Assembly: GCA_964394405.1 (NCBI GenBank)
Contig: CAYMVY010000001.1
Location: forward strand, 494,633 to 558,632
Source: an uncultured Gammaproteobacteria bacterium
Lineage (GTDB): Bacteria; Patescibacteriota; Patescibacteriia; Magasanikbacterales; UBA922
Length of the DNA stretch: 64,000 nucleotides
Reading direction: 5' to 3'
The stretch's first letter is position 1. Each line of letters starts with the position of its first letter. Below, piece after piece: positions 2,024-25,605 of the stretch. A model generated the notes under the pieces. It worked only from the letters and a program-made list of their open reading frames with translations, was not told where the DNA came from and searched no databases. Made by a program: the position numbers and the translations under genes.

Positions 2024-2043
2024 AAAACTCAAAGTTCAAAACG
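2024..2043 (-). repeat. Third, solitary copy of the 20-bp end motif of the four-helix-bundle cassette (CGTTTTGAACTTTGAGTTTT).
   Basis: It is the exact 20-bp reverse complement of 11693-11712. It is also present with one mismatch at 6242-6260. Confidence 0.6.
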
Positions 2044-6177: not shown

Positions 6178-6214
6178 AAAAAACATCCTATCATGCATCG
6201 GGATGTTTTTTAAA
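6178..6214. terminator. Bidirectional rho-independent terminator between the converging genes 3990..6008 (+) and 6425..7876 (-).
   Basis: AAAAAAACATCC-loop-GGATGTTTTTT: a 6-7 bp stem with an A-run on one side and a T-run on the other. Confidence 0.6.
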
Positions 6215-6221
6215 TTGAAAA

Positions 6222-6392: not shown

Positions 6393-6424
6393 TCTTCCCC
6401 TCCTTTTACTTTTTATTTTGCAAA

Positions 6425-7876: not shown

Positions 7877-7930
7877 GGTATACTACTGCACGAATACACA
7901 CGTGTGTAGTATATCCTACTTTTCCAACAG

Positions 7931-9166
7931 ATGACAATTCTTCAGGCACACAAATATTATTGGCCCCGCGATGGCGCATCCAATTACATGCTTTCACTCT
8001 CGAAATTACTTGAAGAGAGAGGTGAAACCGTAATTCCCTTTGCGATGCAGGGCAGAGAGAATCTTCCAACACCATATGGAGAATTTTTTGTACCAGAAAT
8101 GAATCTGAGAGATCCTGAAAAAGCGAATGTAGGGGAAAAAATACGCTACACACTCCGCATGTTCTATTCGATCGAAGCAAAAAAAAGAATGCGGAAATTA
8201 TTGGACACACATCCCGTGGATATTGCGCATATTCACAATATTTATCATCATATTTCACCTTCGATTTTATCAGAACTCAAGCGACGAAAAATTCCGATTG
8301 TGATGACGCTTCATGATTACAAATTGTTGGCGCCAAATTACACCATGTTTCATCATGGCGCAGTACACGAAGAAGACGCGCGCGGATGGTATCTCTCCTG
8401 TGTCAAGAATAAATGTATGAAAGATTCTCGTGCGCAGAGCGCGATTGTGGTTGCAGAGATGATTTGGCATCACAAAATTATGAAATATTATGAGCGCTAT
8501 GTAGACACCTTTATCGCGCCAAGCAGATTTATGAGAGATATCTGTATAAAATTTGGATGGGATGAACAGAAGTTTGTTCATATTCCACATCCTGCATTTG
8601 TTGAGTCCAAGCATCATGTCTCAAAAAAGGATAAAGAGTACGTGGCATATGTAGGTAGGTTATCAGAAGAAAAAGGTCTTCTCGTGCTACTGCGAGCTGC
8701 AAGCTACACCCCAGAGATCCCCTATGTGATTGTAGGCGAGGGTCCTCTTGAGAATAGAATGAGAGGAATGATTGCGAGTCGTAAGCTGAAGAATGTGTGG
8801 TGTGTGGGGTTCAAAACCGGCGCTGAATTGGAAACAATTATTAGCGAAGCACGAGTGTTGGTGCTCCCCTCAATCTGGTACGAGAATTATCCACTAAGCA
8901 TTCTCGAGGCAAAGGCTGCAGGAAATATTGTTATTGGAAGTAATATTGGGGGTATAGGAGAAATGCTCCCGCCTGAACTGGTAGTAGAAGCAGGGAATGA
9001 AGAAATGCTCGCGCATACTATACAGGAGTGGTATCACAAAAAAGCAAGTGAAAGAAAAAAAATGGGAGCACAGTTGCAAGAGGAAGTGAAAAAAGAAAAT
9101 GCACCCCTCGCTCATGTGCGCGCAATCGAGAATGTGTACGCGGCACTCACCAAACACACCACATAG
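7931..9166 (+). CDS. GT4 family glycosyltransferase (GT-B fold).
   Basis: The C-terminal GT4 signature is present: EEKGLLVLL ... VLPSIWYENYPLSILEAKAAGNIVIGSNIGGIGE (E-x7-E). Confidence 0.8.
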   Translation: MTILQAHKYYWPRDGASNYMLSLSKLLEERGETVIPFAMQGRENLPTPYGEFFVPEMNLRDPEKANVGEKIRYTLRMFYSIEAKKRMRKLLDTHPVDIAHIHNIYHHISPSILSELKRRKIPIVMTLHDYKLLAPNYTMFHHGAVHEEDARGWYLSCVKNKCMKDSRAQSAIVVAEMIWHHKIMKYYERYVDTFIAPSRFMRDICIKFGWDEQKFVHIPHPAFVESKHHVSKKDKEYVAYVGRLSEEKGLLVLLRAASYTPEIPYVIVGEGPLENRMRGMIASRKLKNVWCVGFKTGAELETIISEARVLVLPSIWYENYPLSILEAKAAGNIVIGSNIGGIGEMLPPELVVEAGNEEMLAHTIQEWYHKKASERKKMGAQLQEEVKKENAPLAHVRAIENVYAALTKHTT

Positions 9167-9180
9167 TGGATTCGTCTGTT

Positions 9181-11235: not shown

Positions 11236-11722
11236 ATTAGTATAACTCAAAACTCAAATGTCAAAACGTAAAACTATAACGTAAAATTTAAAACTTAATC
11301 AGGGAGGGATTATGGCTAAACTAGATTCAAAAAATGATTTGAAAGTACGTGCGTATTTTCTATCAATACAGACCATACGTTTTTTAGAGATAGTGCCTGA
11401 AAAACGTGTGTATTGGACAATTGGAGATCAGCTACTTAGATCAGTAACGTCAATTGGGGCAAATATTGTCGAAGCAAAATCATCAGCCTCACGAAAAGAG
11501 TTTATCAAGTTCTATCAAATTTCCCTTAAGTCAGCGAATGAGAGTAAATACTGGCTCGGATTATTACGTGATACTACAAATATGGATAAAGACTTAGACA
11601 ATAACATACTGAATGAGGTTGTAGAAGTTGCAAATATGCTTGGATCAAGTATCATTACCATGAAGAATAAAAAGTTTTGAGATTTGAGTTATCGTTTTGA
11701 ACTTTGAGTTTTAAGTTTTGAG
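11236..11722 (+). mobile_element. Small terminal-inverted-repeat-bounded cassette carrying a four-helix-bundle protein gene. It is the full-length counterpart of the MITE-like element at 6222..6392.
   Basis: The left terminal inverted repeat ATTAGTATAACTCAAAAC (11236-11253) is identical to the element end at 6222. Both ends are built from degenerate ACTCAAA / GTTCAAAACG units. The right end (…CGTTTTGAACTTTGAGTTTTAAGTTTTGAG) is a partly degenerate inverted copy. Confidence 0.65.
11312..11680 (+). CDS. Four-helix-bundle protein (TIGR02436 / 23S rRNA intervening-sequence protein family, PF05635).
   Basis: The family signature is present: GDQLLRSVTSIGANIVEA ... SRKEFIKFYQISLKSANESKYWLGLL. The protein is 122 aa and is preceded by a strong RBS (AGGGAGGG). 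Confidence 0.8.
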   Translation: MAKLDSKNDLKVRAYFLSIQTIRFLEIVPEKRVYWTIGDQLLRSVTSIGANIVEAKSSASRKEFIKFYQISLKSANESKYWLGLLRDTTNMDKDLDNNILNEVVEVANMLGSSIITMKNKKF

Positions 11723-11732
11723 ATGGGTCTCT

Positions 11733-13580
11733 ATGCAATACGTTGAAAAGCATCTAACCAAACACCATTTATTGAACGCTCCCCACAAGTGGTTTTTCGC
11801 GTTCTTAGCATCGCCCATACATTTTGCTGAAATGCACTATAAGAATCGATATCATCTGCAGTTTTCTCATGCACGGAAATTATTTTTGTTCGACATGTCT
11901 CTCCTCGCGACACTGGCTGTGATTGCTGGAGCATTCTTATTCTGGAGTACCTATAATCCCACAGTGACAGATCTGGTATATCTCACGGTCACTCCTTCGC
12001 AATCAAGAATTTTGAGTGGAGAGTATGTGACATACACCGTAGGATATGAGAATAAAAGTGATGTGCGACTTTCGAATGCATCCATAACTCTAGACATTCC
12101 TGAAGGATTTATTCTTGATAAAACCGAGCCTGCGACATTTGATCGCTCAAATAATACGATGAAACTCGGTTCAATTGGTTCAGGGGAAAAGGGGAGTGTC
12201 TCGATCTCAGGCTGGTTCTATGGAACACCAGAAGTAGAAGATCATATCCATGCGCATATTAACTATGCCCAAGAAGGGAAAACGCGTACTGAGAATAAAA
12301 TGAGCCCGCATATCATATTTTTACGTGGGTCATTATTGGAGTCTTCGGTTGAATTGCAGGAACAGATTATCGAAAATTCACGCATTCCATTCACAATAAC
12401 GTTAGTCAATAATGGTTCGGAGCCTCTGCTCAATATTGTATTTGATCTAAGTCCAGTCAATACAATTGGAGTACTAGAGAGTGTGACAACTACGAGAGGA
12501 TTGGTGAATGGTGGAATGTGGAATTTATCAGGTCTGCTTCCTGATGAGTCTGTAGAGCTCGAGGGAATCATTGTGATTAGAGGAGGGTTGGGAGAAAATA
12601 CGTATTCGATAAAATTAGCACCAGCACTCTCAATTCGTGGCAAGACAATCACCCAATCAACGGTAACAAAATCTGTACAAGTCGCACGTCCAGAAGCTCG
12701 GGTTAGTGCTCGATGGGATAATGATTCCGCCATGTTAAAACCTAGCGAAACTGGTAGGTTGACTGCGACGATTACCAATACCGGGTCAATCACACTCGAA
12801 CAGGGAGTGATTGAAATTCCGCTTCCCAAAACAATTGTAAATCTGCAGGAGGCTGCGAGAGTGAATGCAGGGACAGTGAGTCAAAATACACTGATTCTTT
12901 CTTCCGCAAAACACCCAGCACTTAATTCGATCTCTCCGGGAGAGTCCCGAACAATTGCACTATTGGTTCCTATTCTTGCAATACCTGATGGGGGAACCGA
13001 CACTGTGCTCCAACCAACAGTTCGCTTCCATGCAGGAGTCGCGATTGATCCAAATACAAGGGTTGAGGCTACAGGGAAAACAGGGCAGCTCAAAGTAGGG
13101 ACACAGGTAGTCTTTACTGGAGAAATTCGGTACTATACTGCCGAGGGCGATCAGCTCGGGCGAGGACCGCTACCTCCACAGGTTGGAAAAGAGACCAAGT
13201 ACGCCGCCCTATTTTCGATTCGCAATACCACGAGCAATGTTACGGGGGGAATACTCAGCGTAAAACTTGGAAGCCGTGCAGTGTGGACGGGTAAGACGAG
13301 CGTTAGTCAGGGGTCTGCTCCTACCTATAACCCCTCGACCCGTATAGTACGGTGGAATGTGGGAACCATTCCAGCGCATGCGACAGTAGGTCTATTTTTT
13401 GAAGTTGGACTGACTCCAGAGGACGAAGAAGTGGGGACCACGCCAGTATTGGTGCTAAGCGCGGAAATTACTGGTACAGATGCCTATCTAGGGTATATGG
13501 TGAGCCGTTCGATAGGCGCTCTTGACACCTCCCTCGGCACAGATCTGATTGGGAGGACAAAAGGGGTGACTGTACGTTGA
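11733..13580 (+). CDS. Membrane-anchored surface protein with repeated DUF11-type (conserved repeat domain) beta-sandwich domains.
   Basis: An N-terminal transmembrane helix (SLLATLAVIAGAFLFW) is followed by repeated motifs such as TITNTGS and TLVNNGSEPL. The start is uncertain: the track uses TTG at 11718, and ATGs lie at 11733 and 11835. Confidence 0.55.
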   Translation: MQYVEKHLTKHHLLNAPHKWFFAFLASPIHFAEMHYKNRYHLQFSHARKLFLFDMSLLATLAVIAGAFLFWSTYNPTVTDLVYLTVTPSQSRILSGEYVTYTVGYENKSDVRLSNASITLDIPEGFILDKTEPATFDRSNNTMKLGSIGSGEKGSVSISGWFYGTPEVEDHIHAHINYAQEGKTRTENKMSPHIIFLRGSLLESSVELQEQIIENSRIPFTITLVNNGSEPLLNIVFDLSPVNTIGVLESVTTTRGLVNGGMWNLSGLLPDESVELEGIIVIRGGLGENTYSIKLAPALSIRGKTITQSTVTKSVQVARPEARVSARWDNDSAMLKPSETGRLTATITNTGSITLEQGVIEIPLPKTIVNLQEAARVNAGTVSQNTLILSSAKHPALNSISPGESRTIALLVPILAIPDGGTDTVLQPTVRFHAGVAIDPNTRVEATGKTGQLKVGTQVVFTGEIRYYTAEGDQLGRGPLPPQVGKETKYAALFSIRNTTSNVTGGILSVKLGSRAVWTGKTSVSQGSAPTYNPSTRIVRWNVGTIPAHATVGLFFEVGLTPEDEEVGTTPVLVLSAEITGTDAYLGYMVSRSIGALDTSLGTDLIGRTKGVTVR

Positions 13581-16043: not shown

Positions 16044-16403
16044 CTATACCACAGGAGTAGAGGAGGGGGTATTATCTTCTTCGGTGTTTTTTGGCGGAGG
16101 TGTCTTGACTGCTTTAGTACTAGGTGAATACAGAGTATTCGATATTTTCCACTTGTCGACAAATTGTCCAATTCCTTGCTTTTCTGATTTATGCTTGACT
16201 GTAATTTTTCTCTGTGACCACTTGACGAGACTTTCAAAATTTATTTTGTATCTACCGCCAACCACCACATACGTGATTTCCTGATCTCGAATGGCTCGAC
16301 GAATAGTCTGTGGATTGACTCCAAAAAGCCGTGCAGCCTCAGAGATTGATACTCTGATTATTTCTTTTGGTTCAGATTGTGGCAGGGGAGTCAGTTCAAC
16401 CAT
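16044..16403 (-). CDS. Helix-turn-helix DNA-binding protein (excisionase / MerR-like HTH_17 type) with a Lys/Pro/Thr-rich tail.
   Basis: The HTH motif is SISEAARLFGVNPQTIRRAIRDQEITYVVVGGRYKINFESLVKW. The probable start is the ATG at 16403 (MVELTPLPQ); the track ORF extends to 16460. Confidence 0.55.
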   Translation of the reverse strand: MVELTPLPQSEPKEIIRVSISEAARLFGVNPQTIRRAIRDQEITYVVVGGRYKINFESLVKWSQRKITVKHKSEKQGIGQFVDKWKISNTLYSPSTKAVKTPPPKNTEEDNTPSSTPVV

Positions 16404-16726
16404 AGGTATATTTGTATACACAAGTATTAACAATTTATCACATTTTGTCAAGTGTTTCAACCTTTATTTAGTAGGAAATATCACTTATTTGTATAGATTA
16501 TTGTATACAAAAATATGTATGTCAGTGTAGTCTAGCAGGTAAATAATCGGGTACATATAGCCTTATTTGGTCAGTAGATGTGGGTGTGCATAGGGGGCTT
16601 TATTTTTTGGCCTTTTTATGCTATAGTTCGCTCTATCTTTAGGTGGGGTATAGATAGTGTCTATAGAGCCATTGTACCCCTTATTTCCCTAGTAACTGTA
16701 ACACTTTTCCCTCTCCTTCGTCTTCT

Positions 16727-17302
16727 ATGGTGAACATACTCAATTCATTCAATGAAAAGAAGCTACTCTACCGAGTTCGGGTACACAAGGACACCGAGGC
16801 TTTTGGAGAACTGTATGATCGGTATGTGGCAAAAATATACCGGTTTGTATACCTCAAAGTATCTCATCGGGAAGAGGCAGAGGATATCGTGAGTGATGTG
16901 TTTCTCAAGGCCTGGAACTATCTCGTTGATGCGCAGCGAGAGGCAGATACTGAAATAAAGAGTTTTAGTGGGCTGATCTACACCATTGCCCGAACATCGA
17001 TAATAGATTTTTATCGGGCACGAGCTCGGAGAAAAGAATGTACTCTCGAAGTATTGGAAGGAGTTGCGGAGAATAGTGAATTGGAGCGATCGACCGGACA
17101 ACAACAGGAAATAACTGCAATACTCCACAAGTTAAAAAAGATGAAACATGAGTATCAAGAGATAATTACACTCAAATATATCGAAGAATTATCTACCGAG
17201 GAAATTGCAAAGATTCTTGATAAAAGTCACGTATCAGTCCGGGTTACTCTACATCGCGCACTCAAAATTTTGAAAGGAATGTTACAAAAAGAAAAAAAAT
17301 GA
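16727..17302 (+). CDS. ECF-type RNA polymerase sigma-70 family factor.
   Basis: Region 2 (YRFVYLKV ... DIVSDVFLKAW) and region 4 (ITLKYIEELSTEEIAKILDKSHVSVRVTLHRALKIL) are present. Confidence 0.8.
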   Translation: MVNILNSFNEKKLLYRVRVHKDTEAFGELYDRYVAKIYRFVYLKVSHREEAEDIVSDVFLKAWNYLVDAQREADTEIKSFSGLIYTIARTSIIDFYRARARRKECTLEVLEGVAENSELERSTGQQQEITAILHKLKKMKHEYQEIITLKYIEELSTEEIAKILDKSHVSVRVTLHRALKILKGMLQKEKK

Positions 17303-17323
17303 TAACGCTACCACTCTGAAAAT

Positions 17324-18499
17324 ATGAGAATGCTCAAGGCACAATTAAGAAAAATAAAAAACCTTGAAGCTCGGATCAATCCCAATCACGAGTGGGTTTT
17401 GCATAATCGGGAAAAATTGATGACCCAGATTGGACATAGCTCAAAGCAAACGGTGAGTGAATTTCAGGTTGCACCAAAAGTGGGACATAGCATCAATACC
17501 TGGACCAAAATTTTTGTTCCACAATCTTTGGTTCATTCTATCAAACCATTTGCATCTGTAGTGGTTGCACTTGTACTGACCAGCGCAGGATGGATAGCAA
17601 GCGCATATGCCGAACCTGGTGATGTACTCTGGAATGCAAAAAACGCGTTTAATTCAGTGGTTGAAAACAGTAGATTGATTTTAGCATCAGAACAAGAACA
17701 GACATCACTTCATCTCAATTTTGCCTCAAAACAAGCACATGTGCTGAAGCAAGTAGTGGAGACAGATAAATTGGAGGGAGAAGAAAAGGCAAAACTCGTA
17801 GATAAGACAGTTGAAAATTTGCAGAAAAAACTAGACTCAGCGCAGGAAAGTATCAAGACACTTCTGCCCAGTGAAGCTGCGGGTCTAGTAAAAGAAGTAT
17901 CGCTTTCAACACAAGATATTTCCCATACGCTCCAAGAAACAGTAAAGAACGCGACTGATAATGGGATTTCTGAAAAAATCGAAAAAACAGTAGTCGAGAC
18001 AACCAAACAAAGTCTTGAAATGGTAGGGGATACAGTTCAGAAAAAGGCAGAAGCAAATCTAGAATTTTCGCCTGAAGAAAAAGAAATTGTCAAAGACCAT
18101 ATCAATCAAGCAGTAGACTCAATGGTTGCAGAGGTAATTAAAACACAAAGTAAATTAGGACAATCTGGAGCAACGACGACGCTGGTTATTGTCCCAACAA
18201 GTACACTGAGTATTGGAAACATTTCAACTTCTACCGTGATCGTAAGTACGACTACAACAATCGATGAACAGAAAAAAGTAGTTGATTCTCTGAAGGAGAC
18301 TAATCTCCTTGAAGCGATCAATACTACCAAGGTACTGGCTGATCAGGTGACAACCATGATTGAAAAAGCGACCGTTCAGACTAATACGTTTAATGCAACC
18401 AATGCGACAACATCCTCAACAGGCGCTGTTGCGTCGCCTACTAAGACACCGGTTTCGATTACACCAACATCGTCTATTACCACATCCTCTACCAGATAA
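17324..18499 (+). CDS. Putative anti-sigma factor-like membrane protein. It is single-pass with a coiled-coil extracytoplasmic domain and a Thr/Ser-rich C-terminus.
   Basis: It sits immediately downstream of the ECF sigma gene and has one transmembrane helix (ASVVVALVLTSAGWIASAYA). No catalytic motifs are present. Confidence 0.35.
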   Translation: MRMLKAQLRKIKNLEARINPNHEWVLHNREKLMTQIGHSSKQTVSEFQVAPKVGHSINTWTKIFVPQSLVHSIKPFASVVVALVLTSAGWIASAYAEPGDVLWNAKNAFNSVVENSRLILASEQEQTSLHLNFASKQAHVLKQVVETDKLEGEEKAKLVDKTVENLQKKLDSAQESIKTLLPSEAAGLVKEVSLSTQDISHTLQETVKNATDNGISEKIEKTVVETTKQSLEMVGDTVQKKAEANLEFSPEEKEIVKDHINQAVDSMVAEVIKTQSKLGQSGATTTLVIVPTSTLSIGNISTSTVIVSTTTTIDEQKKVVDSLKETNLLEAINTTKVLADQVTTMIEKATVQTNTFNATNATTSSTGAVASPTKTPVSITPTSSITTSSTR

Positions 18500-18873
18500 A
18501 TTCGAGTGTAGCGTTTGGAAAGGTAGTACATAACTTTTCAAACGCTATATCTCGAACATCAAGTAGAGGTAGAGCTCTGTTCTCTAACATGTGTTTTGTA
18601 ACATAGCCAGTTCCCAGGGAACTGTGTGGCACACGCTCGGGGGTAAGTACAATCTTATACGCGTGTGTGCCATACAGTTGCTATACATCCTAATAAGATG
18701 TGTGGTAAGGGGCAAAAAAACTCGAGTTTGGCCCTCGAGTATACACACCATCTATAGCAAGGTCGATCCTCGATTCAATCGAGGGAATAGGTGGATTAAC
18801 TAACACTACATATTGGGGTGACGTCCGGCCTTGGCCGGATCGCGTGCCGTGATATGTAAAAGAAAAATTAATT
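18500..18873 (+). promoter_or_regulatory. Highly structured ~370-nt region upstream of the S-layer-like gene, containing at least five hairpins or palindromes. It is a candidate long 5' leader or regulatory RNA.
   Basis: Hairpin 1 at about 18509-18547: TAGCGTTTG ... CAAACGCTA. Palindrome 2 at about 18612-18627: CAGTTCCC/GGGAACTG. Hairpin 3 at about 18626-18685: AACTGTGTGGCACACGC ... GCGTGTGTGCCATACAGTT. Hairpin 4 at about 18721-18741: ACTCGAG-TTTGGCC-CTCGAGT. Hairpin 5 at about 18769-18785: CCTCGAT-TCA-ATCGAGG. Palindrome 6 at about 18827-18842: TCCGGCC-TTG-GCCGGA. Confidence 0.4.
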
Positions 18874-21800
18874 ATGAATGATGTATTAAAATTCGGCAAA
18901 AAGCTTTTTACAGCTTCTGTAGTCGGAGTTACCATCGCATGGAGCATGGGCCTTGCAGCTCTCGTTCCATCAGTAGCTCAGGCTGCTACCTGCCCAGAGC
19001 TTGAACCGGGTGATTTATTCAAAGCCTCAAGTGCATCAGCTGTATACTATTTGACAGCTGACTGGAAACGAGCTTATTTCCCACATGAGGACGTATTCAA
19101 GAGTTGGAATCTTAATTTCAACGATGTAGTAACTGTTTCAGGTGATTGTCTTTTCACCTATCCAGCTGCTACTCCAGCAGGTATCAGTTACCGCGCTGGA
19201 TCACGCTTGATCAAATTGACTGACGCTAATGCAGTATTTGCTATTACGCCAGGCAACAAGATCGTGCAGATCGGAAGTGAATCAGTTGCTGCTGCACTCT
19301 ATGGCAGCGCATGGGCAAAAGTCGTTCGCGACGTTAGTCCTTTCCACTGGTCAAACTACTCAGATACACAAACCACATGGAACGAATCAAAACCTCATGA
19401 TGGAATGCTCGTAAAGAAAACTGGTGAAACAACTGTATACCACGTAAAGAGTGGAATGCTCCACATGGTAGACGGAACTGTTCCAGCAAACGCATCTGCG
19501 GATGTACGAACAGTATCTGCATCAGTATTCGGTACCCTTTCAATGGGTAGTGGATCTATGACTGTAAACAGTCTGTTTGAGAACCCACCACAGGGCACTG
19601 GAACAGGTGTTCCAACTGTGTCTGGCTCTCTCTCAGTAAGTCTTGCAGCTGATACTCCAGCAGCAGGATTTGCACTTGCAAGTGCAGCTCGCGTACCTTT
19701 TACCAAAGTTACATTCCGAGCTGGATCAAGTGACATCACTATTGATTCATTCAAAGTAAAACGCACAGGTTTCCCTGCAGTTGATGCTGATTTCAGCAAT
19801 ATCAATGTCATGGATTCAAATGGCAACCTCTTGAATGACTCTGGAAAAACATTGAATTCAGATCATGAAGTAACCTTCACTGAAAACATCGTTGTTCCTG
19901 CAAACACCAGTAAAACCTATACGATCGTAGCTGACATGGCTGCTATCGCTACTATGGTTGGTGGCAATGTACCAAGACTTACATTACTTTCAGTTGTTTC
20001 AAACGCTGCATCAGTTTCTGGTCTTCCTGTTGAAGGAAATCAGATGACTACTAATGAAAGTCTTACTCTCGGTACAGTAACTCTCGCAGAAGGTACTCAG
20101 GTAGGTACTCCTACCAAACAGGTTGGCGCTGAGAATGTAAACTTAGCTAACTTGAAGATTACCAACTCTGGAAGTGCTGATACTGAAGATGTTCGCGTAG
20201 AGCGAATCGTGTTCTACAACAGTGGAACCGCTGCTGACGCTGACGTAAGTGGATTTGAGTTGAAATTCAATGGTAACGTTGTTGCTACCGGCGTATTGTC
20301 AAACAAATACCTCACATTCGATCTCTCAAGCTGTCTTGAAAACTGTGTTATCAAGAAAGGCTATGATCGAACTTTCGAAGTATATGGTGACTTGACCGCT
20401 GGCTCAGGACGAACTATCAACCTTGATGTACAATATGCTACACATGTGTTGGTAAAGGATCTTGACAATAGCGTGTACCTCACTCCTACTGACGATGCTA
20501 CAGCAATGACCAATACAGTTACTGTTTCCCAAGGTAAAATCAATGTTACCAAGGTAAACAATGTACCTGCAGGAAATGTTCCTGGAAATGCGTCTAACGT
20601 AGAATTGGGTTCTTGGAACTTCAAAGTTACCGGTGAACCTATCGACGTTCGAACTACGGTATTCAAATTGGTAACAACTGGCACCATCGTACCTACAGGC
20701 TTAGACAGTCTTGTACTCTATGATGCTGCTGGAAAAGCACTGACAGGTAGTGTGGATGGTGTAGGTGGAACTTCTACTGGATATGCTACCACTACTGACA
20801 CTTTCACTTTGCAGCCTGGGGACAACATCCTTACGCTCAAGGGTAAAGTAGACAACACTGCAGTAGCGGGTGATACCATCACCGTAAGTATCGACATGGG
20901 AAACACCACGAACTTTATTGCTCGAGGTGTAAACAGTAATCTCGATATTACTCTTGGTACCTATGCAACTCCACAGTCTACTGTGGCTGCAAATATCAGA
21001 ACAGTAGAGACTTCAGCACTCCGAGTAACGACACTTAGTACTCCAGCTGCTCAGTCTTTCTCTCCTGGTACAAGCAACGTACTCTTTGCAAAAGTTTCAC
21101 TTGACGCTTCTGGATCTTCTGAAGATCTCAAAGTTAGTCAATTCATCGTTGTAGATGAAACTGGTGCTACTGCTAAAACCATCGACCTCCAGAACATTCG
21201 TCTCTGGGTAGACAAAGATGGTGATAGTAATAATGGCACTGGAAGTGCAGTTGCATTGAGTGAAGTAAACAACGGTAGTGACACTGACGCGGGTGATGAC
21301 GAAACATTCACCTTCAACCTCTCTGGCGATGACCAAATCTTGGTTAAAGCTGGAAAGAGTGTTGTAGTTGAAGTTCGTGCTGACATCGCTGGTGGCGCAA
21401 CTGCTGGTACTCACACCTTCGTTACCGATGGTGCAAATGAAGTAACCGCAACTGGGTTAACTACTCAGTCAACTGTGGTTGAAACGATCGATGCTGGCCC
21501 AACTGGTCAGGCAATGACGATCGGTACTTCTGGTGGACAGGTTGAAGTAGCGTTGGCTTCTGAAAATCCAGTTGCAGCACAGCTTGCTGCTGGAACTACA
21601 GTAACCCTCGCAGCATTCAATTTCTTGGCTACCACAACTGAAGATGTAGAGCTCGATTATCTCTACCTCACTCAGAACATTACCGATACTGCATCATCTT
21701 CTTACACTGATTACGATCAGATTTGGTTCGAAGATGCAAGTGGTAATGAAATTGCTGGTACCCGAATGTCTCCAACTAGTACCAAGCCACTTATCAACTT

Positions 21801-22623
21801 TGCTGACAACGCGTTTGTCGTAAACGTTGCTAATTCAAGTGGTGAAGTTCTCTACTTGAAAGCTAAATTAGCTGCAATTGGAGCTGGCGCAAACGGTGTT
21901 AGTCAGCATCAATTAGGCTATAAGATCAATACAGCTGCAGATGTAGTCGCAAAAGGTGACCAGACTGGAAGCGCAGCAACTGAGTTCTTGGCTGCTACTG
22001 CTCCAACTGGCAATACACACTTGAATTTCAAGGCGTATCCTAGATTCGCGAGAGTCTCTGCAGGAAATTCAGGACTATCAAATAGTACTGAAGATCTGTA
22101 TCGATTTACTGTTACCGCTGTCAATGGACCTATAGCACTCAATGGATTCACCTTTGATGTAGCTACCACGACAGCAAGTCTAGTGCTAGGCACAATGTAT
22201 CTGTATGATGTAACCGATGCAAATGAGTTGCAGGTCAATGAGACTGCAATGGTCGGTACATACTATGCAACCGGAGCAGTATTCCAGACTGTTGGATACA
22301 ACAATGACTGGGATACAAGCTATACACCTGATGAAATTACCGTCTCAACTGGTGCTACACGTACCTTTGTATTGAGAGCTAATGTTACAGGTGCTGCTAC
22401 TGGCGCTTCGATCAATACAGGTATGGCTGGAGATAGCGCTGAAGTACCTATTGCGTACGGCAGTCGCACTGCAACCAACATTGACTCACAGACACATGAT
22501 GACTTTATCTGGTCTGACAAGAGCGCTTCTGGTCATTCAGTAAGCACTGCTGACTGGGCTAACGGTTATCTCGTAGCTGGATTGTCTTCTTCAACCAGTA
22601 CACTTGAGTCAATTTCGTACTAA
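18874..22623 (+). CDS. Large secreted S-layer-like / surface (glyco)protein, 1249 aa.
   Basis: A signal peptide ends in AQA-ATC. The composition is Thr/Ser/Ala/Val/Gly/Asn-rich and charge-poor with very few Cys, and the protein is mostly beta-rich repeats. A strong terminator follows the gene, and it is adjacent to the glycan-biosynthesis island. Confidence 0.5.
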   Translation: MNDVLKFGKKLFTASVVGVTIAWSMGLAALVPSVAQAATCPELEPGDLFKASSASAVYYLTADWKRAYFPHEDVFKSWNLNFNDVVTVSGDCLFTYPAATPAGISYRAGSRLIKLTDANAVFAITPGNKIVQIGSESVAAALYGSAWAKVVRDVSPFHWSNYSDTQTTWNESKPHDGMLVKKTGETTVYHVKSGMLHMVDGTVPANASADVRTVSASVFGTLSMGSGSMTVNSLFENPPQGTGTGVPTVSGSLSVSLAADTPAAGFALASAARVPFTKVTFRAGSSDITIDSFKVKRTGFPAVDADFSNINVMDSNGNLLNDSGKTLNSDHEVTFTENIVVPANTSKTYTIVADMAAIATMVGGNVPRLTLLSVVSNAASVSGLPVEGNQMTTNESLTLGTVTLAEGTQVGTPTKQVGAENVNLANLKITNSGSADTEDVRVERIVFYNSGTAADADVSGFELKFNGNVVATGVLSNKYLTFDLSSCLENCVIKKGYDRTFEVYGDLTAGSGRTINLDVQYATHVLVKDLDNSVYLTPTDDATAMTNTVTVSQGKINVTKVNNVPAGNVPGNASNVELGSWNFKVTGEPIDVRTTVFKLVTTGTIVPTGLDSLVLYDAAGKALTGSVDGVGGTSTGYATTTDTFTLQPGDNILTLKGKVDNTAVAGDTITVSIDMGNTTNFIARGVNSNLDITLGTYATPQSTVAANIRTVETSALRVTTLSTPAAQSFSPGTSNVLFAKVSLDASGSSEDLKVSQFIVVDETGATAKTIDLQNIRLWVDKDGDSNNGTGSAVALSEVNNGSDTDAGDDETFTFNLSGDDQILVKAGKSVVVEVRADIAGGATAGTHTFVTDGANEVTATGLTTQSTVVETIDAGPTGQAMTIGTSGGQVEVALASENPVAAQLAAGTTVTLAAFNFLATTTEDVELDYLYLTQNITDTASSSYTDYDQIWFEDASGNEIAGTRMSPTSTKPLINFADNAFVVNVANSSGEVLYLKAKLAAIGAGANGVSQHQLGYKINTAADVVAKGDQTGSAATEFLAATAPTGNTHLNFKAYPRFARVSAGNSGLSNSTEDLYRFTVTAVNGPIALNGFTFDVATTTASLVLGTMYLYDVTDANELQVNETAMVGTYYATGAVFQTVGYNNDWDTSYTPDEITVSTGATRTFVLRANVTGAATGASINTGMAGDSAEVPIAYGSRTATNIDSQTHDDFIWSDKSASGHSVSTADWANGYLVAGLSSSTSTLESISY

Positions 22624-22663
22624 TCGAACTCTTGAAAAGAGTGATTGGTAAGTCATTACAGAC

Positions 22664-22707
22664 TAAAAAAACATCCCCCCGACGTCACGTCGGGGGGTGT
22701 TTTTTTG
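22664..22707 (+). terminator. Strong rho-independent terminator.
   Basis: CCCCCCGACG-TCA-CGTCGGGGGG: a 10-bp GC stem followed by TGTTTTTTTG. Confidence 0.8.
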
Positions 22708-22785: not shown

Positions 22786-23502
22786 ATGAGCAAGAAAAAA
22801 ATTATCATTGGAGGTGTTTTGATAGTAGTATTAATTTTGGGGGGCGGGTATTGGTGGACACTGCGCCAGGGGATTTCCCTGTCTGATGTAGCGAGAAAAA
22901 TCACAGGAAAAGAAGAAGTGTTCCCAATTGATGATCCGGGCAAGCTATTTTTGGTAGTGCCACCTGAGCATTTTAGTGATGTAGAAAAAGAGAGATTGGG
23001 TGATAAAATCAACCTAAGTAGGACTCTGTATGACACCAAGAAAGAAGAGACCTGGACATGGGTTACGATTGGTAATATGTATGAATTTGCAGAAGACTAT
23101 GATCGGGCTATTAGTGCATATACTCACGTCGCAGAATTGAATCCTCTTGAATTTATTTCTCAGATAAATATTGCTTATATTTATGAGAACTATAAAAAAG
23201 ACTATAAAAAAGCAGAAGAATATTATAAAAAAGTATTGGAAATGAATCCAAATAGCCCGGATAATTACATTAATTTGGCCCGACTATATGCTCTAAAGAT
23301 GAATCGGGTGGAGGACGCTGAAAAGGTGTATCTAGAGGGTCTTGAAAAGACAAAAAATTATCCAGATCTATTGGTAATGTTGATCAGGTTGTATCAATCA
23401 CAGGCTAATACTGAAAAAGTTGTTGAATATTCGAAATTACTTCTCAGATTATATCCTGACAACGAAGCCTATCAGCGAGATTTTGGAGAATTTGCGCAAT
23501 AA
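22786..23502 (+). CDS. Membrane-anchored TPR-repeat protein.
   Basis: An N-terminal transmembrane helix (IIIGGVLIVVLILGGGYWW) is followed by TPR-like repeats (AISAYTHVAELNP, AEEYYKKVLEMNP). Confidence 0.55.
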   Translation: MSKKKIIIGGVLIVVLILGGGYWWTLRQGISLSDVARKITGKEEVFPIDDPGKLFLVVPPEHFSDVEKERLGDKINLSRTLYDTKKEETWTWVTIGNMYEFAEDYDRAISAYTHVAELNPLEFISQINIAYIYENYKKDYKKAEEYYKKVLEMNPNSPDNYINLARLYALKMNRVEDAEKVYLEGLEKTKNYPDLLVMLIRLYQSQANTEKVVEYSKLLLRLYPDNEAYQRDFGEFAQ

Positions 23503-23526: not shown

Positions 23527-25605
23527 ATGGAAAGAAAAAATTTCTTCAATTATTCTAGTATCATAAAGATTTTGATTAGCGCTTTGTTCGTCGCACCTCT
23601 AATTCTTTTGAATGATTTTATCTTTCCATTTATTGTACCAAAAATTTTGTTTCTTCGGTCGCTCATCATGATCATATTGGGCGCATACATTTTATTACTT
23701 TTCTCTGATTTCCAGAGATTTAGACCAAAATTTTCTTTCCTCACTATAAGCATTCTCTTATTTTGGCTAAGTTTGGCCATCTCAACATTCGCAGGGGTTG
23801 ATTGGTATCGGAGCTTCTGGGACAATCACGAGCGTATGCTCGGGCTCTTCACCATCACGCACTATGTGATCCTCTATATGGTTGCGTCAGTAGTCATTAC
23901 GACTGAGCGCGATTGGACATTTATCTTTCGGTCAATTTTGATTTTTGGATCACTCGTCATGCTTCTTGGTATGTGGCAAAAATTTGTAGATCCTCAGGCA
24001 CTTTTGAATCGAGGATCAGGGCGTGTGTCCGCAACACTTGGGAACGCTATCTATTATAGTGGATATGGATTATTCCTCCTGTTTCTCGGTGCGATAGAAT
24101 TTTATCGTGAACGGCGGGTGAGTGCGGTATGGAAATATATCGCTCTCGCAACAGCGCTATTTGGGTTCATTGGAATTTTTTTAGGAGGTACTCGAGGTAG
24201 TTTGCTAGGGGGTATGGTAGGTGTTGGTGTACTAGTCACCTGCTATGGATTTTTCTCAAAAACTCGGAATCAGATTACTCGACTGGCGCGATATGCCGCG
24301 ATTGTTGGTGTGGTGGTACTGGGGCTCCTATTCGCATTTCGGACTACCCCGTTTGTATCAGAATTACCTCTACTTGGGTCACTTCTCAATACGTCTTTTT
24401 CTGGTGGTACTGCTGGAACTCGTGTTATGGCATGGGGTATTGCAATTGATGCGTGGAAAGAAAAACCAATCTTTGGTTGGGGGCCTAATAATTTTTACTA
24501 TGCGTTCAATCAATATTACAATCCTCAATTTTTGGAACATGGTTGGAGTGAAACATGGTTCGATAATGCGCATAGTGTAATTTTTAATACACTGACAGTA
24601 CAAGGTGCGTTTGGAATCATCACATATCTCCTCATTTATATCACAGCGGTCAGTATATTATTCATAGGAGTGCGACGTGGACAGATCAATCAACACATTG
24701 GTTTTTTATCAATTGCATTTCTCATTGCGCATTTGGTGGGACTGGTAACAGTGTTCGAGAATCCGACCTCGTATCTCTACTTTTTTGTTTTCTTGGGATT
24801 CGTGGCATACATCGTGAGTCCAGTGAAAGTATTGCATGCGAAAGAATCTACTGAGAGCAATACTTCAAAGAAAGCAGTAATACAATCTGCTCGAACAGGG
24901 CAGTCATCTGTCGGATTATCAGTAATTGTATGGACTTTTATCATACTGTTCATATATATCACTGATATTTCACCTGCTCGCGCGAATAAAGCAGTCGTAG
25001 TGTCTATGCAGAAGTTATATGCGGGTATTGCAGACGAGACTATTTTTGATGAACCATTATCTTTCTCCACACCGCATATCGACGATATACGGAATGATTT
25101 GGCTCGGGTAATTTTTGAAAGACTACCTCAGATGGCGCAAGAAGGTAAGACAGCAGAGATAGGGTTATTATTTGACCGAACAGTACAAGAACTCAAAAAA
25201 AATCAGGCATTGCATCCACTAGATGTTCGCGTACATTTCACTTTATCACAGTATTATAATGTAGGGTATCAGCTGACCAAAAATAGGGACCTCGTGATTC
25301 AGAGTGAAGTCGAGATACGACGAGCGCTGGGACTATCACCCAAGCGTCAACAATTCGAGTATACGCTTGCCTATAATTTGGTAGATCAGGCGAGGCACAA
25401 AGAAGCTGAAGAAATATTAAGAAAATCAATTGAAAACAATCCAAAAATCAGTGAGGGTTGGTGGAGACTAGCGGTCATTTATGGCTATGAGACGAGTACG
25501 AGCTCTGCTCAGGCATTGGTCGATGAGGCTATTGGCAAGGGAGTGGTATTCGATGAGAATGGGAAGAATATTTTGAGACAGCTCGGTATTAAACTCCCCG
25601 AGTGA
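23527..25605 (+). CDS. Wzy_C / O-antigen-ligase-family polytopic membrane protein fused to a C-terminal TPR domain. It is a candidate ligase or O-oligosaccharyltransferase.
   Basis: Ligase-family motifs are present (GGTRGSLLG ... RVMAWGIAIDAWKEKPIFGWGPNNF ... AHSVIFNTLTVQGAFG). C-terminal TPR repeats follow (EEILRKSIENNPKISEGWWRLAVIYG). Confidence 0.65.
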   Translation: MERKNFFNYSSIIKILISALFVAPLILLNDFIFPFIVPKILFLRSLIMIILGAYILLLFSDFQRFRPKFSFLTISILLFWLSLAISTFAGVDWYRSFWDNHERMLGLFTITHYVILYMVASVVITTERDWTFIFRSILIFGSLVMLLGMWQKFVDPQALLNRGSGRVSATLGNAIYYSGYGLFLLFLGAIEFYRERRVSAVWKYIALATALFGFIGIFLGGTRGSLLGGMVGVGVLVTCYGFFSKTRNQITRLARYAAIVGVVVLGLLFAFRTTPFVSELPLLGSLLNTSFSGGTAGTRVMAWGIAIDAWKEKPIFGWGPNNFYYAFNQYYNPQFLEHGWSETWFDNAHSVIFNTLTVQGAFGIITYLLIYITAVSILFIGVRRGQINQHIGFLSIAFLIAHLVGLVTVFENPTSYLYFFVFLGFVAYIVSPVKVLHAKESTESNTSKKAVIQSARTGQSSVGLSVIVWTFIILFIYITDISPARANKAVVVSMQKLYAGIADETIFDEPLSFSTPHIDDIRNDLARVIFERLPQMAQEGKTAEIGLLFDRTVQELKKNQALHPLDVRVHFTLSQYYNVGYQLTKNRDLVIQSEVEIRRALGLSPKRQQFEYTLAYNLVDQARHKEAEEILRKSIENNPKISEGWWRLAVIYGYETSTSSAQALVDEAIGKGVVFDENGKNILRQLGIKLPE

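What the first reader, a model, noticed from the sequence alone, without database searches (positions are those of the whole stretch)
16727..22707. ECF sigma / anti-sigma pair directly upstream of a 1249-aa S-layer-like protein that heads the glycosylation island
Three genes lie in the same orientation just upstream of about 40 kb of glycan biosynthesis genes. They are an ECF sigma factor (16727-17302), a single-pass membrane protein typical of anti-sigma partners (17324-18499), and a very large signal-peptide protein. That protein has S-layer-like composition, being Thr/Ser/Ala/Val/Asn-rich and nearly Cys-free. It ends at a very strong terminator. The layout suggests an envelope-stress-responsive surface-layer protein whose glycosylation machinery is encoded next door. 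S-layer glycosylation loci of this size are poorly described outside Firmicutes and Archaea.
Basis: inference. Interest (0 to 1): 0.6.

Follow-up and report, generated by a model that had tools for sequence, protein, structure and literature searches.

The report
Candidate CPR S-layer glycoprotein operon
In an ultra-small "candidate phyla radiation" bacterium, a dedicated sigma factor, a membrane partner and a long folded RNA leader are conserved in one unit with a large wall-anchored surface protein, the best available candidate for the S-layer seen on these cells by electron microscopy but never assigned to a gene in the literature searched here.

Summary
All three ORFs, the signal peptide, the composition, the strong terminator and about 41 kb of glycan genes are present. 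The genome is a Candidatus Magasanikbacteria (CPR/Patescibacteria).

The 1249-aa protein founds a large unannotated family (1,405 representatives; median length 1,248 aa). It has three parts: a Sec signal, an N-terminal triple repeat resembling endolysin/EccB wall-binding domains (swapped for PG_binding_1 in some relatives), and about six cohesin/CLIPPER-like beta-sandwiches.

The body is hypervariable between close relatives while the anchor is conserved, as in S-layer genes. A TPR protein plus a Wzy_C protein follow, mirroring WsaA/WsaB of the Geobacillus S-layer glycosylation cluster.

- Sigma is adjacent in 36 of 41 loci, and in 4 of 4 loci sampled from the sigma side.
- A conserved TGTAAC-N16-CGTC promoter gives a leaderless sigma (or DUF5667) mRNA.
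- No such promoter lies upstream of the large gene. Instead, no terminator separates it from the upstream genes, and a conserved structured leader of about 370 nt, absent from Rfam, intervenes.

"S-layer" and "anti-sigma" remain inferences.

The parts
16044..16460 (-). Divergent HTH_17 (excisionase/MerR-like) regulator gene, a conserved neighbour of the unit
   Evidence: Pfam HTH_17 36.6 bits. Homologues lie divergently upstream of sigma in most Magasanikbacteria-type loci.
16696..16726 (+). ECF-type promoter TGTAACAC(TTTT)-N-CGTCTTC (-35 TGTAAC at 16697-16702, -10 CGTC at 16719-16722). It ends 4-7 nt before the start codon, so the mRNA would be leaderless.
   Evidence: The only strict GTAAC-N15-17-CGTC match on either strand of the 64-kb window. 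Conserved in 26 distinct loci at fixed register, with the start codon 7 nt after CGTC. PWM score 34.1 bits against a background 95th percentile of 4.8.
16727..17302 (+). ECF (group 4) sigma-70 factor. The probable true start is GTG at 16730.
   Evidence: Pfam r2 + r4_2; TIGR02937 88 bits against cut-off 42.9. 730 homologues at E<=1e-20, and every named one listed is from Magasanikbacteria or other Patescibacteria.
17324..18499 (+). Single-pass membrane protein of the DUF5667 orthologous group (putative anti-sigma, or a partner of the surface protein). It has a 67-aa cytoplasmic N-terminus with a conserved LKxQLKxIKxLxxxxNPDxxWVxxNRxxLxxQI motif, a TM at about 68-96, a helical ectodomain and a Thr/Ser-rich tail.
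   Evidence: TM and composition. 21 of 29 orthologues hit Pfam DUF5667, best E 4e-12, while the window copy is below threshold. No solved anti-sigma relative; only helical-bundle noise.
18500..18873 (+). 374-nt structured leader with no intrinsic terminator. It comprises a helix after the stop codon and a long hairpin at 18621-18678 with an invariant base ACUGURUGGC/GCCAUACAGU. It also has a hairpin at 18720-18740, an AAGGUCGA box at 18759-18766, and a closing helix next to the ribosome-binding region.
   Evidence: RNAalifold on six relatives: 87 pairs, 32 with compensatory changes. The hairpin folds with z -4 to -8.5 in 14 of 14 loci while its distal stem differs completely in sequence. 22 of 30 GCCATACAG occurrences in 1.07 Mb of loci lie in this leader. 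No Rfam family matches. Terminator-like hairpins occur in only 5 of 37 leaders.
18874..18984 (+). Sec signal peptide of the large protein (37 aa, cleavage after AQA)
   Evidence: Hydrophobic core at residues 11-35 and an AQA|A site read from the sequence. 97 % identical in relatives whose body is unrelated.
18985..19611 (+). N-terminal domain (aa 38-246): three tandem repeats of about 60 aa, a putative cell-wall-binding anchor
19612..22623 (+). Body (aa 247-1249): about six all-beta sandwich domains plus a conserved C-terminal tail motif DDFIWSD..H...DW.NGYLV.GL
22675..22707 (+). Strong intrinsic terminator that closes the sigma/DUF5667/large-protein unit
   Evidence: 10-bp stem, 9 G-C pairs, then a T-run. 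An equivalent terminator follows the large gene in 33 of 35 loci.
22786..23502 (+). Small TPR protein (238 aa), the positional counterpart of WsaA
   Evidence: Many TPR Pfam families, for example TPR_8 at 55.5 bits. Conserved downstream of the large gene. WsaA analogy from PMC2943079.
23527..25605 (+). Wzy_C (O-antigen-ligase/O-oligosaccharyltransferase family) membrane protein with weak, below-cut-off C-terminal TPR hits, a candidate protein O-glycosyltransferase
   Evidence: Pfam Wzy_C 56.1 bits. The C-terminal TPR hits are below Pfam cut-offs: TPR_14 15.3 against 23.5, TPR_19 14.5 against 25, TPR_8 14.0 against 25.7. A homologue lies downstream in 37 of 43 loci. WsaB, WsfB, PglL and PilO share Wzy_C, and WsfB and PglL have a C-terminal TPR (PMC2943079).

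Best explanation
The finding is a conserved gene unit of Patescibacteria (here a Candidatus Magasanikbacteria) that makes and controls the cell's main wall-anchored surface protein, most likely its S-layer glycoprotein.

Shown:
- An ECF sigma gene is preceded by its own TGTAAC-N16-CGTC promoter, placed so that the mRNA is leaderless. In Parcubacteria-type relatives the same promoter sits directly in front of the next gene instead.
- The next gene encodes a single-pass DUF5667 membrane protein.
- No terminator follows it. A conserved, heavily base-paired leader of about 370 nt follows, then the 1249-aa gene and a strong terminator.
- The protein has a Sec signal, three small repeats with the fold of endolysin/EccB wall-binding modules (exchanged for PG_binding_1 in some relatives), and about six cohesin/CLIPPER-like beta-sandwiches whose sequence is replaced wholesale between close relatives.
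- A TPR protein, a Wzy_C protein and a 41-kb glycan island follow.

Inferred:
- The protein is exported and held on the wall by its N-terminal module.
- It forms the outer layer and is O-glycosylated by the Wzy_C/TPR pair, as in Geobacillus.
- Its transcription comes at least partly by read-through from the sigma-dependent promoter.
- The leader hairpins process or stabilise the mRNA so that far more surface protein than sigma is made.
- The DUF5667 protein holds sigma at the membrane until an envelope signal releases it.
For: Synteny: sigma is on the same strand upstream in 36 of 41 distinct loci and Wzy_C is downstream in 37 of 43. The same order is seen in 4 of 4 loci sampled from sigma orthologues and in loci from Magasanikbacteria to Parcubacteria.

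Promoter: 26 loci carry TGTAACA[CT]TTT-N-CGTCT with the start codon exactly 7 nt after CGTC. It is unique in the 64-kb window. In Parcubacteria-type loci it sits directly before DUF5667.

One transcription unit: terminator-like hairpins occur in 5 of 37 leaders against 33 of 35 regions after the large gene.

Leader: 87 pairs, 32 compensatory, in six sequences; hairpin z -4 to -8.5 in 14 of 14.

Glycosylation parallel: TPR + Wzy_C next to the structural gene, as with WsaA/WsaB beside sgsE (PMC2943079).

S-layers on groundwater CPR cells that lack an outer membrane have been imaged, and those texts assign no gene.
Against: - No sequence or whole-chain structural similarity to any characterised S-layer protein; the domain folds are generic for surface proteins and adhesins.
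- No data on lattice formation, abundance or glycosylation.
- Codon bias is only mildly stronger than in neighbouring genes (ENC 45.4 against about 51).
- No sigma-type promoter lies in the leader, so sigma control depends on unproven read-through.
- In some loci a TATACT -10-like box overlaps the hairpin's 5' arm and could be an independent promoter.
- Five of 41 loci lack the sigma. Four of them are in the branch where the N-terminal wall-binding module is replaced; the fifth (L085) has a tandem large-protein copy upstream.
- The DUF5667 protein has no recognisable anti-sigma domain.
- Known O- and N-glycosylation sequons are not enriched.
Confidence: 0.55

Rival explanations
1. The large protein is a wall-anchored surface glycoprotein that does not form a lattice. 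It could be a host-attachment adhesin or fibril of an episymbiotic CPR cell. Its variable body would reflect host or phage specificity rather than S-layer cassette switching. The genetic unit is otherwise as described.
For: Its domains resemble cohesin, CLIPPER (fibrillar adhesin) and pilin/adhesin beta-sandwiches. Inter-domain packing in the model is uncertain (pTM 0.51). CPR cells attach to hosts. Body replacement between close relatives fits a specificity determinant.
Against: Fibrillar adhesins usually vary in repeat number, whereas this family keeps 1,216-1,264 aa (IQR) down to 27 % identity with non-identical domains. It has a conserved genomic slot beside the O-glycosylation pair, as S-layer genes do. 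It is present across many Patescibacteria lineages.
Confidence: 0.3
2. The sigma factor does not control the large gene. The large gene is transcribed from its own strong housekeeping promoter inside the leader. The sigma/DUF5667 pair is only a conserved neighbour that regulates itself, and perhaps distant genes.
For: No sigma-type promoter occurs in any leader. S-layer genes in Firmicutes are monocistronic (PMC2943079). In L002, L009, L019, L022 and L076 a TTTAAA-17-TATACT-like element abuts the hairpin. An autoregulated ECF operon would normally be weakly expressed.
Against: Adjacency and orientation hold in 36 of 41 loci plus 4 of 4 across deep divergence. A terminator is almost never present between the genes but almost always follows the large gene. 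When the promoter moves, it stays upstream of DUF5667 plus the large gene. In L089 the gap between DUF5667 and the large gene is 33 nt. No housekeeping-type promoter holds a consistent position across loci.
Confidence: 0.35
3. The DUF5667 protein is not an anti-sigma factor. It is a structural or assembly partner of the surface protein, for example a membrane-anchored helical spacer with a glycosylated Thr/Ser tail that links membrane, wall and outer layer. It is co-expressed with the surface protein under the sigma.
For: No anti-sigma domain or Zn motif was found. It has a long helical ectodomain and a Thr/Ser-rich tail (36-41 % in the last 80 aa in the window group). In Parcubacteria-type loci the sigma-dependent promoter drives DUF5667 rather than sigma. 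So the invariant promoter-driven pair is DUF5667 plus the large protein.
Against: The conserved about 35-aa cytoplasmic N-terminal motif and the start codon overlapping or abutting the sigma stop (gaps from -7 to +41 nt in most loci) are typical of sigma/anti-sigma coupling. Most ECF sigmas have a co-transcribed single-pass anti-sigma (established knowledge).
Confidence: 0.25

Closest known systems
Geobacillus stearothermophilus NRS 2004/3a sgsE S-layer gene with its slg glycosylation cluster (WsaA TPR protein, WsaB Wzy_C O-oligosaccharyltransferase); also Paenibacillus alvei WsfB
   Same: A secreted S-layer structural gene ends in its own terminator and lies close to a polysaccharide-type gene cluster. 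A small TPR protein sits immediately before a Wzy_C membrane protein; WsfB and PglL carry the TPR C-terminally (PMC2943079). The window has TPR 22786-23502, then Wzy_C 23527-25605 with weak C-terminal TPR hits, then GT4/GT2 and NDP-sugar genes.
   Different: There is no sequence homology between the structural proteins. The anchor is a different fold. The island has a Wzx-type flippase (57373-58869) rather than the Wzm/Wzt ABC transporter. No initiating PHPT was found in the window. The Firmicute S-layer genes have no dedicated sigma/anti-sigma and are transcribed independently.
Bacillus subtilis cell-envelope ECF sigma operons (sigW-rsiW, sigX-rsiX, sigM-yhdLK, sigV-rsiV)
   Same: A two-domain sigma is followed by a single-pass membrane partner. 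It has an autoregulatory promoter with an AAC -35 and a CGT -10 at 16-nt spacing. The consensuses TGAAAC-N16-CGTA, TGTAAC-N17-CGAC and TGCAAC-N17-CGTC are recalled from memory; the motif here is TGTAAC-N16-CGTC.
   Different: The mRNA here is leaderless at a fixed 7 nt from CGTC. The partner is DUF5667 with no recognised anti-sigma domain. The unit continues without a terminator into a 3.7-kb surface-protein gene. In some lineages the promoter precedes the partner rather than sigma.
SLH- or CWB2-anchored S-layer proteins with variable exposed regions (Bacillus anthracis Sap/EA1, Clostridioides difficile SlpA cassettes, Lactobacillus Slp)
   Same: Modular design: a conserved wall-binding module made of three tandem repeats plus an exposed part that is swapped between strains. 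Acidic, Cys-poor, with a Sec signal.
   Different: No SLH, CWB2 or other known S-layer Pfam domain is present. The repeats have the PlyCB/EccB1-repeat fold instead. The body is six cohesin/CLIPPER-like sandwiches.
Clostridium thermocellum sigmaI-RsgI pairs that control cellulosomal scaffoldin (cohesin-bearing) genes
   Same: An alternative sigma with a single-pass membrane anti-sigma that has an extracellular sensing part is dedicated to genes for large secreted cohesin-fold surface proteins (PMC6056542 listed; mechanism from own knowledge).
   Different: SigmaI is not an ECF sigma. RsgI has defined N-terminal and CBM/sensor domains. The targets have their own sigmaI promoters and are not fused into the sigma operon.
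Long structured 5' untranslated regions of S-layer mRNAs (Lactobacillus slpA/cbsA, Thermus thermophilus slpA, Aeromonas vapA); from own knowledge, not tested here
   Same: A long leader with stable hairpins precedes a very highly expressed surface-layer gene and is thought to prolong mRNA life.
   Different: The leader here is longer (170-590 nt), conserved with covariation across many lineages, and sits inside an operon-like unit rather than at a mapped 5' end.
PlyCB, LysIME-EF1 and Lys170 endolysin cell-wall-binding domains and the EccB1 repeat domains

Membership tests
ECF (group 4) sigma-70 factors | Only sigma domains 2 and 4, matching the ECF profiles | tested here: met
   Pfam Sigma70_r2, Sigma70_r4_2 and Sigma70_ECF; TIGR02937 88 bits against cut-off 42.9. 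No equivalog-level family reaches its cut-off; the best is TIGR02952 at 116.9 against 206.
ECF (group 4) sigma-70 factors | Autoregulatory promoter with an AAC-type -35 and a CGT-type -10 | tested here: met
   TGTAAC-N16-CGTC at 16697-16722, conserved in 26 loci and unique in the window. Its activity was not tested.
ECF (group 4) sigma-70 factors | Co-transcribed membrane anti-sigma partner | tested here: inconclusive
   A single-pass membrane gene follows at -7 to +41 nt in most loci, but its anti-sigma function is unproven.
Anti-sigma factors (class I anti-sigma domain / zinc-binding ZAS) | N-terminal anti-sigma domain recognisable by profile (zf-HC2, RskA, etc.) or the HxxxCxxC zinc motif | tested here: not met
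   No Pfam or NCBIfam hit in the window protein. It has no Cys at all. The orthologue profile finds no solved anti-sigma.
Anti-sigma factors (class I anti-sigma domain / zinc-binding ZAS) | Physical binding of sigma domains 2/4 by the cytoplasmic N-terminus | not testable with these tools
A conserved about 35-aa N-terminal motif exists.
Pfam DUF5667 | Match to PF18915 above threshold | tested here: inconclusive
   21 of 29 orthologues match (best E 4e-12). The window copy does not at E<=0.01, so membership is by orthology only.
Bacterial S-layer proteins | Self-assembly into a 2D paracrystalline lattice that covers the cell | not testable with these tools
   S-layers have been imaged on CPR cells, but this gene is not linked to them.
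Bacterial S-layer proteins | Secreted, acidic, Cys-poor protein rich in hydroxy and hydrophobic residues | tested here: met
   Signal peptide, pI 4.5, 0.3 % Cys, and T+A+V+S+G = 52 %.
Bacterial S-layer proteins | Known anchoring module (SLH, CWB2, or the Lactobacillus or Caulobacter types) | tested here: not met
   No Pfam domain. A different candidate wall-binding fold is present, and PG_binding_1 takes its place in relatives.
Bacterial S-layer proteins | One of the most abundant cell proteins / very high expression | tested here: inconclusive
   ENC 45.4, at the low end of window genes. The strong terminator and structured leader are consistent. No expression data.
slg-type S-layer protein O-glycosylation systems | Wzy_C-family O-oligosaccharyltransferase with a TPR module (fused or adjacent) next to glycan assembly genes | tested here: met
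   TPR protein 22786-23502 and Wzy_C 23527-25605 with weak C-terminal TPR hits; glycan genes. Definition from PMC2943079.
slg-type S-layer protein O-glycosylation systems | Initiating polyprenyl-phosphate hexose-1-phosphate transferase and an export system (Wzm/Wzt or Wzx) | tested here: inconclusive
   A Wzx-type flippase is present (Polysacc_synt_3, 57373-58869). No PHPT or ABC transporter was found among the ORFs scanned, and three ORFs have no Pfam hit.
slg-type S-layer protein O-glycosylation systems | The structural protein is actually glycosylated | not testable with these tools
   The Bacteroidetes D(S/T)(A/I/L/V/M/T) motif and NxS/T are not enriched.
Rfam RNA families (leader RNA) | Match to any curated covariance model | tested here: not met
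   No hit at gathering thresholds in the window. Only chance-level miRNA matches (E 0.55-1.3) at permissive settings.

The most novel reading that the evidence does not exclude
Patescibacteria use a dedicated feedback circuit to match synthesis of their S-layer glycoprotein to envelope state. The circuit would consist of a leaderless autoregulated ECF sigma, a DUF5667 membrane sensor, and a previously undescribed structured leader RNA of about 370 nt. The leader's long hairpin has an invariant ACUGURUGGC/GCCAUACAGU base. The protein family would be the long-sought S-layer protein of CPR bacteria, anchored by a wall-binding fold so far known from phage endolysins and EccB.
Probability: 0.25. 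Interest if true: 0.8.

Novelty: new variant of a known kind. Interest (0 to 1): 0.62.

Why it matters
CPR/Patescibacteria make up a large share of bacterial diversity. Cryo-EM shows that they have an S-layer and no outer membrane, yet none of the papers found in the searches here assigns a gene to that layer outside the SLH-bearing Gracilibacteria/Absconditabacteria. This locus offers a concrete, testable candidate: a family of more than 1,400 representatives with confident domain models that could be fitted into subtomogram averages or looked for in metaproteomes.

The layer is probably what phages and host cells meet, which fits the wholesale replacement of the exposed body between close relatives. 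The circuit around the gene is unusual for any surface-layer gene. It combines a leaderless ECF sigma, a DUF5667 partner and a conserved structured leader absent from Rfam. It would give DUF5667 its first functional context and add a candidate new cis-acting RNA.

Tried and rejected
1. Strict and relaxed regex scans and a 26-site weight matrix found nothing above background in any of 37 leaders. The one weak window match (TAACAC-N17-CGTC at 18801-18824) is not conserved; it lies in a variable hairpin stem.
2. Known families for the large protein. Pfam, NCBIfam and a PDB sequence search all gave nothing.
4. Viral structure library for the N-terminal domain. Hits were weak and mostly uncharacterised, with a few lysins at poor E-values. 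The afdb50 library was unavailable.
5. Rfam for the leader. No hit at gathering or permissive thresholds.
6. Housekeeping promoter at a fixed position relative to the leader hairpin. No consistent site across loci; only a subgroup has TATACT abutting the hairpin.
7. Glycosylation sequons. NxS/T 17 against 17.4 expected; D[ST][AILVMT] 4 against 8 expected.
8. Codon bias as an expression proxy. Only a mild signal.
9. Anti-sigma homology through a profile of 29 orthologues against the PDB. Only helical-bundle noise.
10. Technical failures. The distant alignment A2 was too divergent for the metagenome scan and too long for the representative search. Both were redone with other inputs.
11. Locus tags of named family members are not mentioned in any searchable paper.

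Full report
**Observation.** The three ORFs exist exactly as described: 16727-17302 (191 aa), 17324-18499 (391 aa) and 18874-22623 (1249 aa), all on the + strand.
- The first ORF is an ECF-type sigma factor. Pfam finds Sigma70_r2, Sigma70_r4_2 and Sigma70_ECF, and NCBIfam TIGR02937 scores 88 bits against a cut-off of 42.9. No narrower family reaches its cut-off.
- The second ORF has one hydrophobic segment at about residues 68-96 after a 67-aa N-terminus, and no family hit.
- The third ORF has a Sec signal peptide (…VAQA|ATCPE). Its composition is T 12.6, A 11.3, V 10.2, S 9.0, G 8.8, N 6.5 %, with four Cys and pI 4.5.
- It ends at a terminator with a 10-bp stem, 9 G-C pairs and a T-run at 22675-22707.
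- Downstream, glycan genes fill the window from 22.8 to 63.9 kb. They include a TPR protein, Wzy_C, many GT4/GT2 transferases and NDP-sugar dehydratases, epimerases and aminotransferases. There are also two PMT_2 enzymes, two asparagine-synthase-like amidotransferases and a Wzx-type flippase.

**Organism and family.** The closest homologues of all three proteins come from Candidatus Magasanikbacteria and other Patescibacteria (CPR) metagenome-assembled genomes, and every named homologue of the large protein is "hypothetical".
- The large protein has no Pfam, NCBIfam or PDB sequence match, yet it founds a large family. The 1,004-aa body finds 1,405 representatives at 50 % clustering (E <= 1e-3) and 268 at E <= 1e-30.
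- Length is remarkably constant. Among 115 full-length homologues the median is 1,248 aa with an IQR of 1,216-1,264, down to 27 % identity.

**Architecture of the protein.** Pairwise comparison shows a mosaic.
- In P0054, P0056, P0060, P0063 and P0064 the signal peptide is 86-97 % and residues 38-246 are 71-81 % identical to the query, while the body is only 20-37 % identical and the C-terminal tail 7-19 %.
- In P0070, P0084, P0098 and P0114 the N-terminal region is unrelated, but the body and a C-terminal motif (DDFIWSD..H...DW.NGYLV.GL) are kept.
- AlphaFold2 with a 43-sequence alignment folds residues 38-250 at pLDDT 92.6 as three tandem repeats of about 60 residues.
- In P0084, P0098 and P0100 the same position holds PG_binding_1 above Pfam's cut-off. 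I therefore infer that residues 38-246 are a wall-binding anchor.

A conserved anchor with a wholesale-replaced exposed part, constant overall length, acidic pI and few Cys together make the classical profile of S-layer proteins. The folds alone cannot exclude a non-lattice adhesin.

**Genomic context.** I compared 98 fetched loci: 6 from genomes, 80 from metagenomes and 12 from exact-protein look-ups.

| Feature | Loci with enough flank | Loci with the feature |
|---|---|---|
| Homologous ECF sigma, same strand, 1-2.7 kb upstream | 41 | 36 |
| Wzy_C homologue downstream | 43 | 37 |

- Four of the five exceptions without sigma are in the branch where the N-terminal wall-binding module is replaced. 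They carry a different 220-260-aa gene upstream. The fifth, L085, has a tandem copy of the large gene.
- Sampling from the sigma side gives the same answer. Four sigma orthologues (52-56 % identity) chosen only for long contigs all show HTH_17(-) | sigma > DUF5667 or anti-sigma-like gene > 310-410-nt gap > 1,236-1,484-aa protein > (TPR) > Wzy_C.

**Promoter.** Directly upstream of sigma lies TGTAACAC-TTTT-N-CGTCTTC (16696-16726).
- It is the only strict GTAAC-N15-17-CGTC match in the window.
- It is conserved in 26 distinct loci in a fixed register, with the start codon exactly 7 nt after CGTC: ATG, GTG or TTG. That implies a leaderless mRNA. In the window it makes GTG 16730 the likely start.
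- A weight matrix built from these sites scores them 21-36 bits. The best site in any of the 37 leaders upstream of the large gene scores 4.7, equal to the 95th percentile of random 350-nt chunks.
- Scanning all loci with the matrix showed something further. In Parcubacteria-type loci (L013, L045, L047, L059, L077, also L043 and L089) the same promoter sits directly in front of the DUF5667 gene. Sigma lies just upstream wherever the contig reaches far enough: L013, L043, L077 and L089.

The invariant promoter-driven unit is thus DUF5667 plus whatever follows it.

**One unit.** A simple terminator scan found terminator-like hairpins in only 5 of 37 leaders, and those were weak. It found them in 33 of 35 regions just after the large gene. 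In L089 the DUF5667 and large genes are only 33 nt apart. Read-through from the sigma-dependent promoter into the large gene is therefore structurally possible and conserved. It is not shown.

**Leader RNA.** The 374-nt spacer (18500-18873) is not junk.
- Six close relatives align with 71 % mean identity in blocks. RNAalifold predicts 87 pairs, 32 of which show compensatory changes.
- The most striking element is a hairpin (18621-18678) whose base helix ACUGURUGGC/GCCAUACAGU is conserved in 18 leaders. Its distal stem differs completely in sequence and length but is always paired. In 14 of 14 cases tested, z was -4 to -8.5 and 0 of 200 shuffles folded as well.
- 22 of the 30 GCCATACAG occurrences in 1.07 Mb of loci lie in this leader.
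- An AAGGUCGA box and a closing helix next to the ribosome-binding region are also conserved.
- Rfam has no match.
- In a subgroup a TATACT box abuts the 5' arm and could be a -10 element, so an internal promoter cannot be excluded.

My inference is that the leader processes and/or stabilises the surface-protein mRNA, as the long 5' UTRs of other S-layer genes are thought to do (own knowledge).

**The second gene.** Its orthologues share a cytoplasmic motif LKxQLKxIKxLxxxxNPDxxWVxxNRxxLxxQI, a TM at about residues 60-95 and a helical ectodomain. In the window group they also have a Thr/Ser-rich tail.
- 21 of 29 orthologues match Pfam DUF5667 (best E 4e-12); the window copy is below threshold.
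- There is no zinc motif (the protein has no Cys) and no similarity to solved anti-sigma factors.

"Anti-sigma" is a reasonable positional inference, but the family membership test fails. A structural partner role is a live alternative.

**Glycosylation.** The review PMC2943079 states the following:
- The Geobacillus S-layer gene sgsE lies close to its slg cluster.
- The predicted O-oligosaccharyltransferases WsaB and WsfB carry Wzy_C, as do PglL and PilO.
- WsfB and PglL have a C-terminal TPR.
- WsaB lacks a TPR but is preceded by the small TPR protein WsaA.

The window has the same pair directly after the large gene: a TPR protein of 238 aa, then a Wzy_C protein with weak C-terminal TPR hits. 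This is the strongest contextual argument that the large protein is O-glycosylated. Sequon counts are uninformative.

**Literature.** S-layers without an outer membrane have been imaged on groundwater CPR cells and on Ca. Nealsonbacteria, and a 2026 review only notes their presence. SLH-domain proteins are reported for Gracilibacteria/Absconditabacteria. I found no paper naming this family, DUF5667, or a sigma-linked S-layer gene.

**Verdict.**
- The best-supported explanation (about 0.55) is a conserved Patescibacteria unit. In it an ECF sigma-dependent, leaderless transcript runs through a DUF5667 gene and a structured leader into the gene for the principal wall-anchored surface glycoprotein, probably the S-layer protein. 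The TPR/Wzy_C pair and the adjacent island then glycosylate that protein.
- Shown: the anatomy, the conservation, the promoter motif, the absence of a leader promoter and of intervening terminators, RNA covariation, the domain folds and the modular evolution.
- Inferred: lattice formation, wall binding, glycosylation, read-through, anti-sigma function and any stress signal.

It is a new variant of a known kind: an S-layer gene with an slg-type glycosylation cluster, plus an ECF sigma module. The protein family, the anchor and the leader RNA are new.

Noticed in passing
window 14-6008 (ORFs 14-1768, 2438-3613, 3954-6008): Base composition is very different here: GC 0.57-0.66 and GC3 0.73-0.90, against about 0.40 and 0.35 elsewhere, with a strong A-over-T skew. 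Two of the ORFs encode Cys/Asp-rich repeat proteins (Dicty_CTDC, thrombospondin type-3 and MopE-like repeats). A 1,149-aa Dicty_CTDC protein lies in the same neighbourhood in L009, so this looks native rather than a chimeric assembly.
   Followed up: partly
window 18500-18873; hairpin 18621-18678: The spacer before the large gene is a conserved structured RNA that Rfam does not contain. Its long hairpin has an invariant base (ACUGURUGGC/GCCAUACAGU) and a hypervariable but always paired distal stem. It is a candidate new cis-acting RNA motif, possibly an RNase III-type processing or stabilising element.
   Followed up: yes
L012:7485-7580 and L014:7534-7630: A related element ending in GCCATACAG, with a degenerate 5' arm (CTGTGTTATAC...), also lies about 170 nt upstream of the sigma gene in these two loci. 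The motif may therefore mark both transcription units, which suggests a possible common regulator site.
   Followed up: partly
window 16044-16460 (-): An HTH_17 (excisionase/MerR-like) gene is transcribed divergently from sigma. It is conserved in that position in most Magasanikbacteria-type loci and may be a second regulator of the unit.
   Followed up: partly
window 16600-16640: About 90-120 nt upstream of sigma is a block conserved in the close relatives, GCCTTTATTTTTTGGCYTTTTTATGCTATAGT. It reads like a housekeeping promoter (TTTATT-17-TATAGT with TGC before the -10). It could be a second, sigma-independent promoter for the unit.
   Followed up: no
window 6425-7876 (-), 9166-11205, 11718-13580: Conserved upstream neighbours include a second Wzy_C gene, a GHL15 + FG-GAP protein of 679 aa, and a DUF11/CLIPPER-domain protein of 620 aa. 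The last two recur next to the unit in distant relatives (L011, L012, L014, L095-L098), so they may be further envelope components.
   Followed up: partly
window 35824-37170 and 52414-53835; 37174-39021 and 46703-48583: The glycan island holds two PMT_2 (GT-C, protein-mannosyltransferase-like) enzymes and two asparagine-synthase-like amidotransferases. These are unusual extras that may modify the protein or the glycan.
   Followed up: no
L051:4060-4845, L065:4250-4981, L072:4185-4847, L074:3718-4614: In the branch where the N-terminal wall-binding module is replaced (PG_binding_1 type), the sigma/DUF5667 pair is absent. A 220-298-aa ORF sharing the motif LYRVT(D/E)L(F/M)P..EP(L/I)KW.LR sits upstream of the large gene instead, possibly an alternative regulator.
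   Followed up: no
L085:96-1208 and 4620-8735: One locus carries a second, partial homologue of the large protein followed by TPR and Wzy_C-like genes, immediately upstream of the full-length copy. This is a tandem duplication or cassette arrangement.
   Followed up: no
L008:1-1494: A second sigma + DUF5667 pair lies about 8 kb upstream of the main unit in the closest relative. DUF5667 partners therefore accompany more than one ECF sigma in these genomes.
   Followed up: no
window 18874-22623, residues C40/C92 and C487/C491: The four Cys are invariant or nearly so across 18 relatives (C92, C487 and C491 at 90 % or more; C40 is in the majority consensus). They lie in two close pairs, suggesting two conserved disulfides in an otherwise Cys-free protein.
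   Followed up: no
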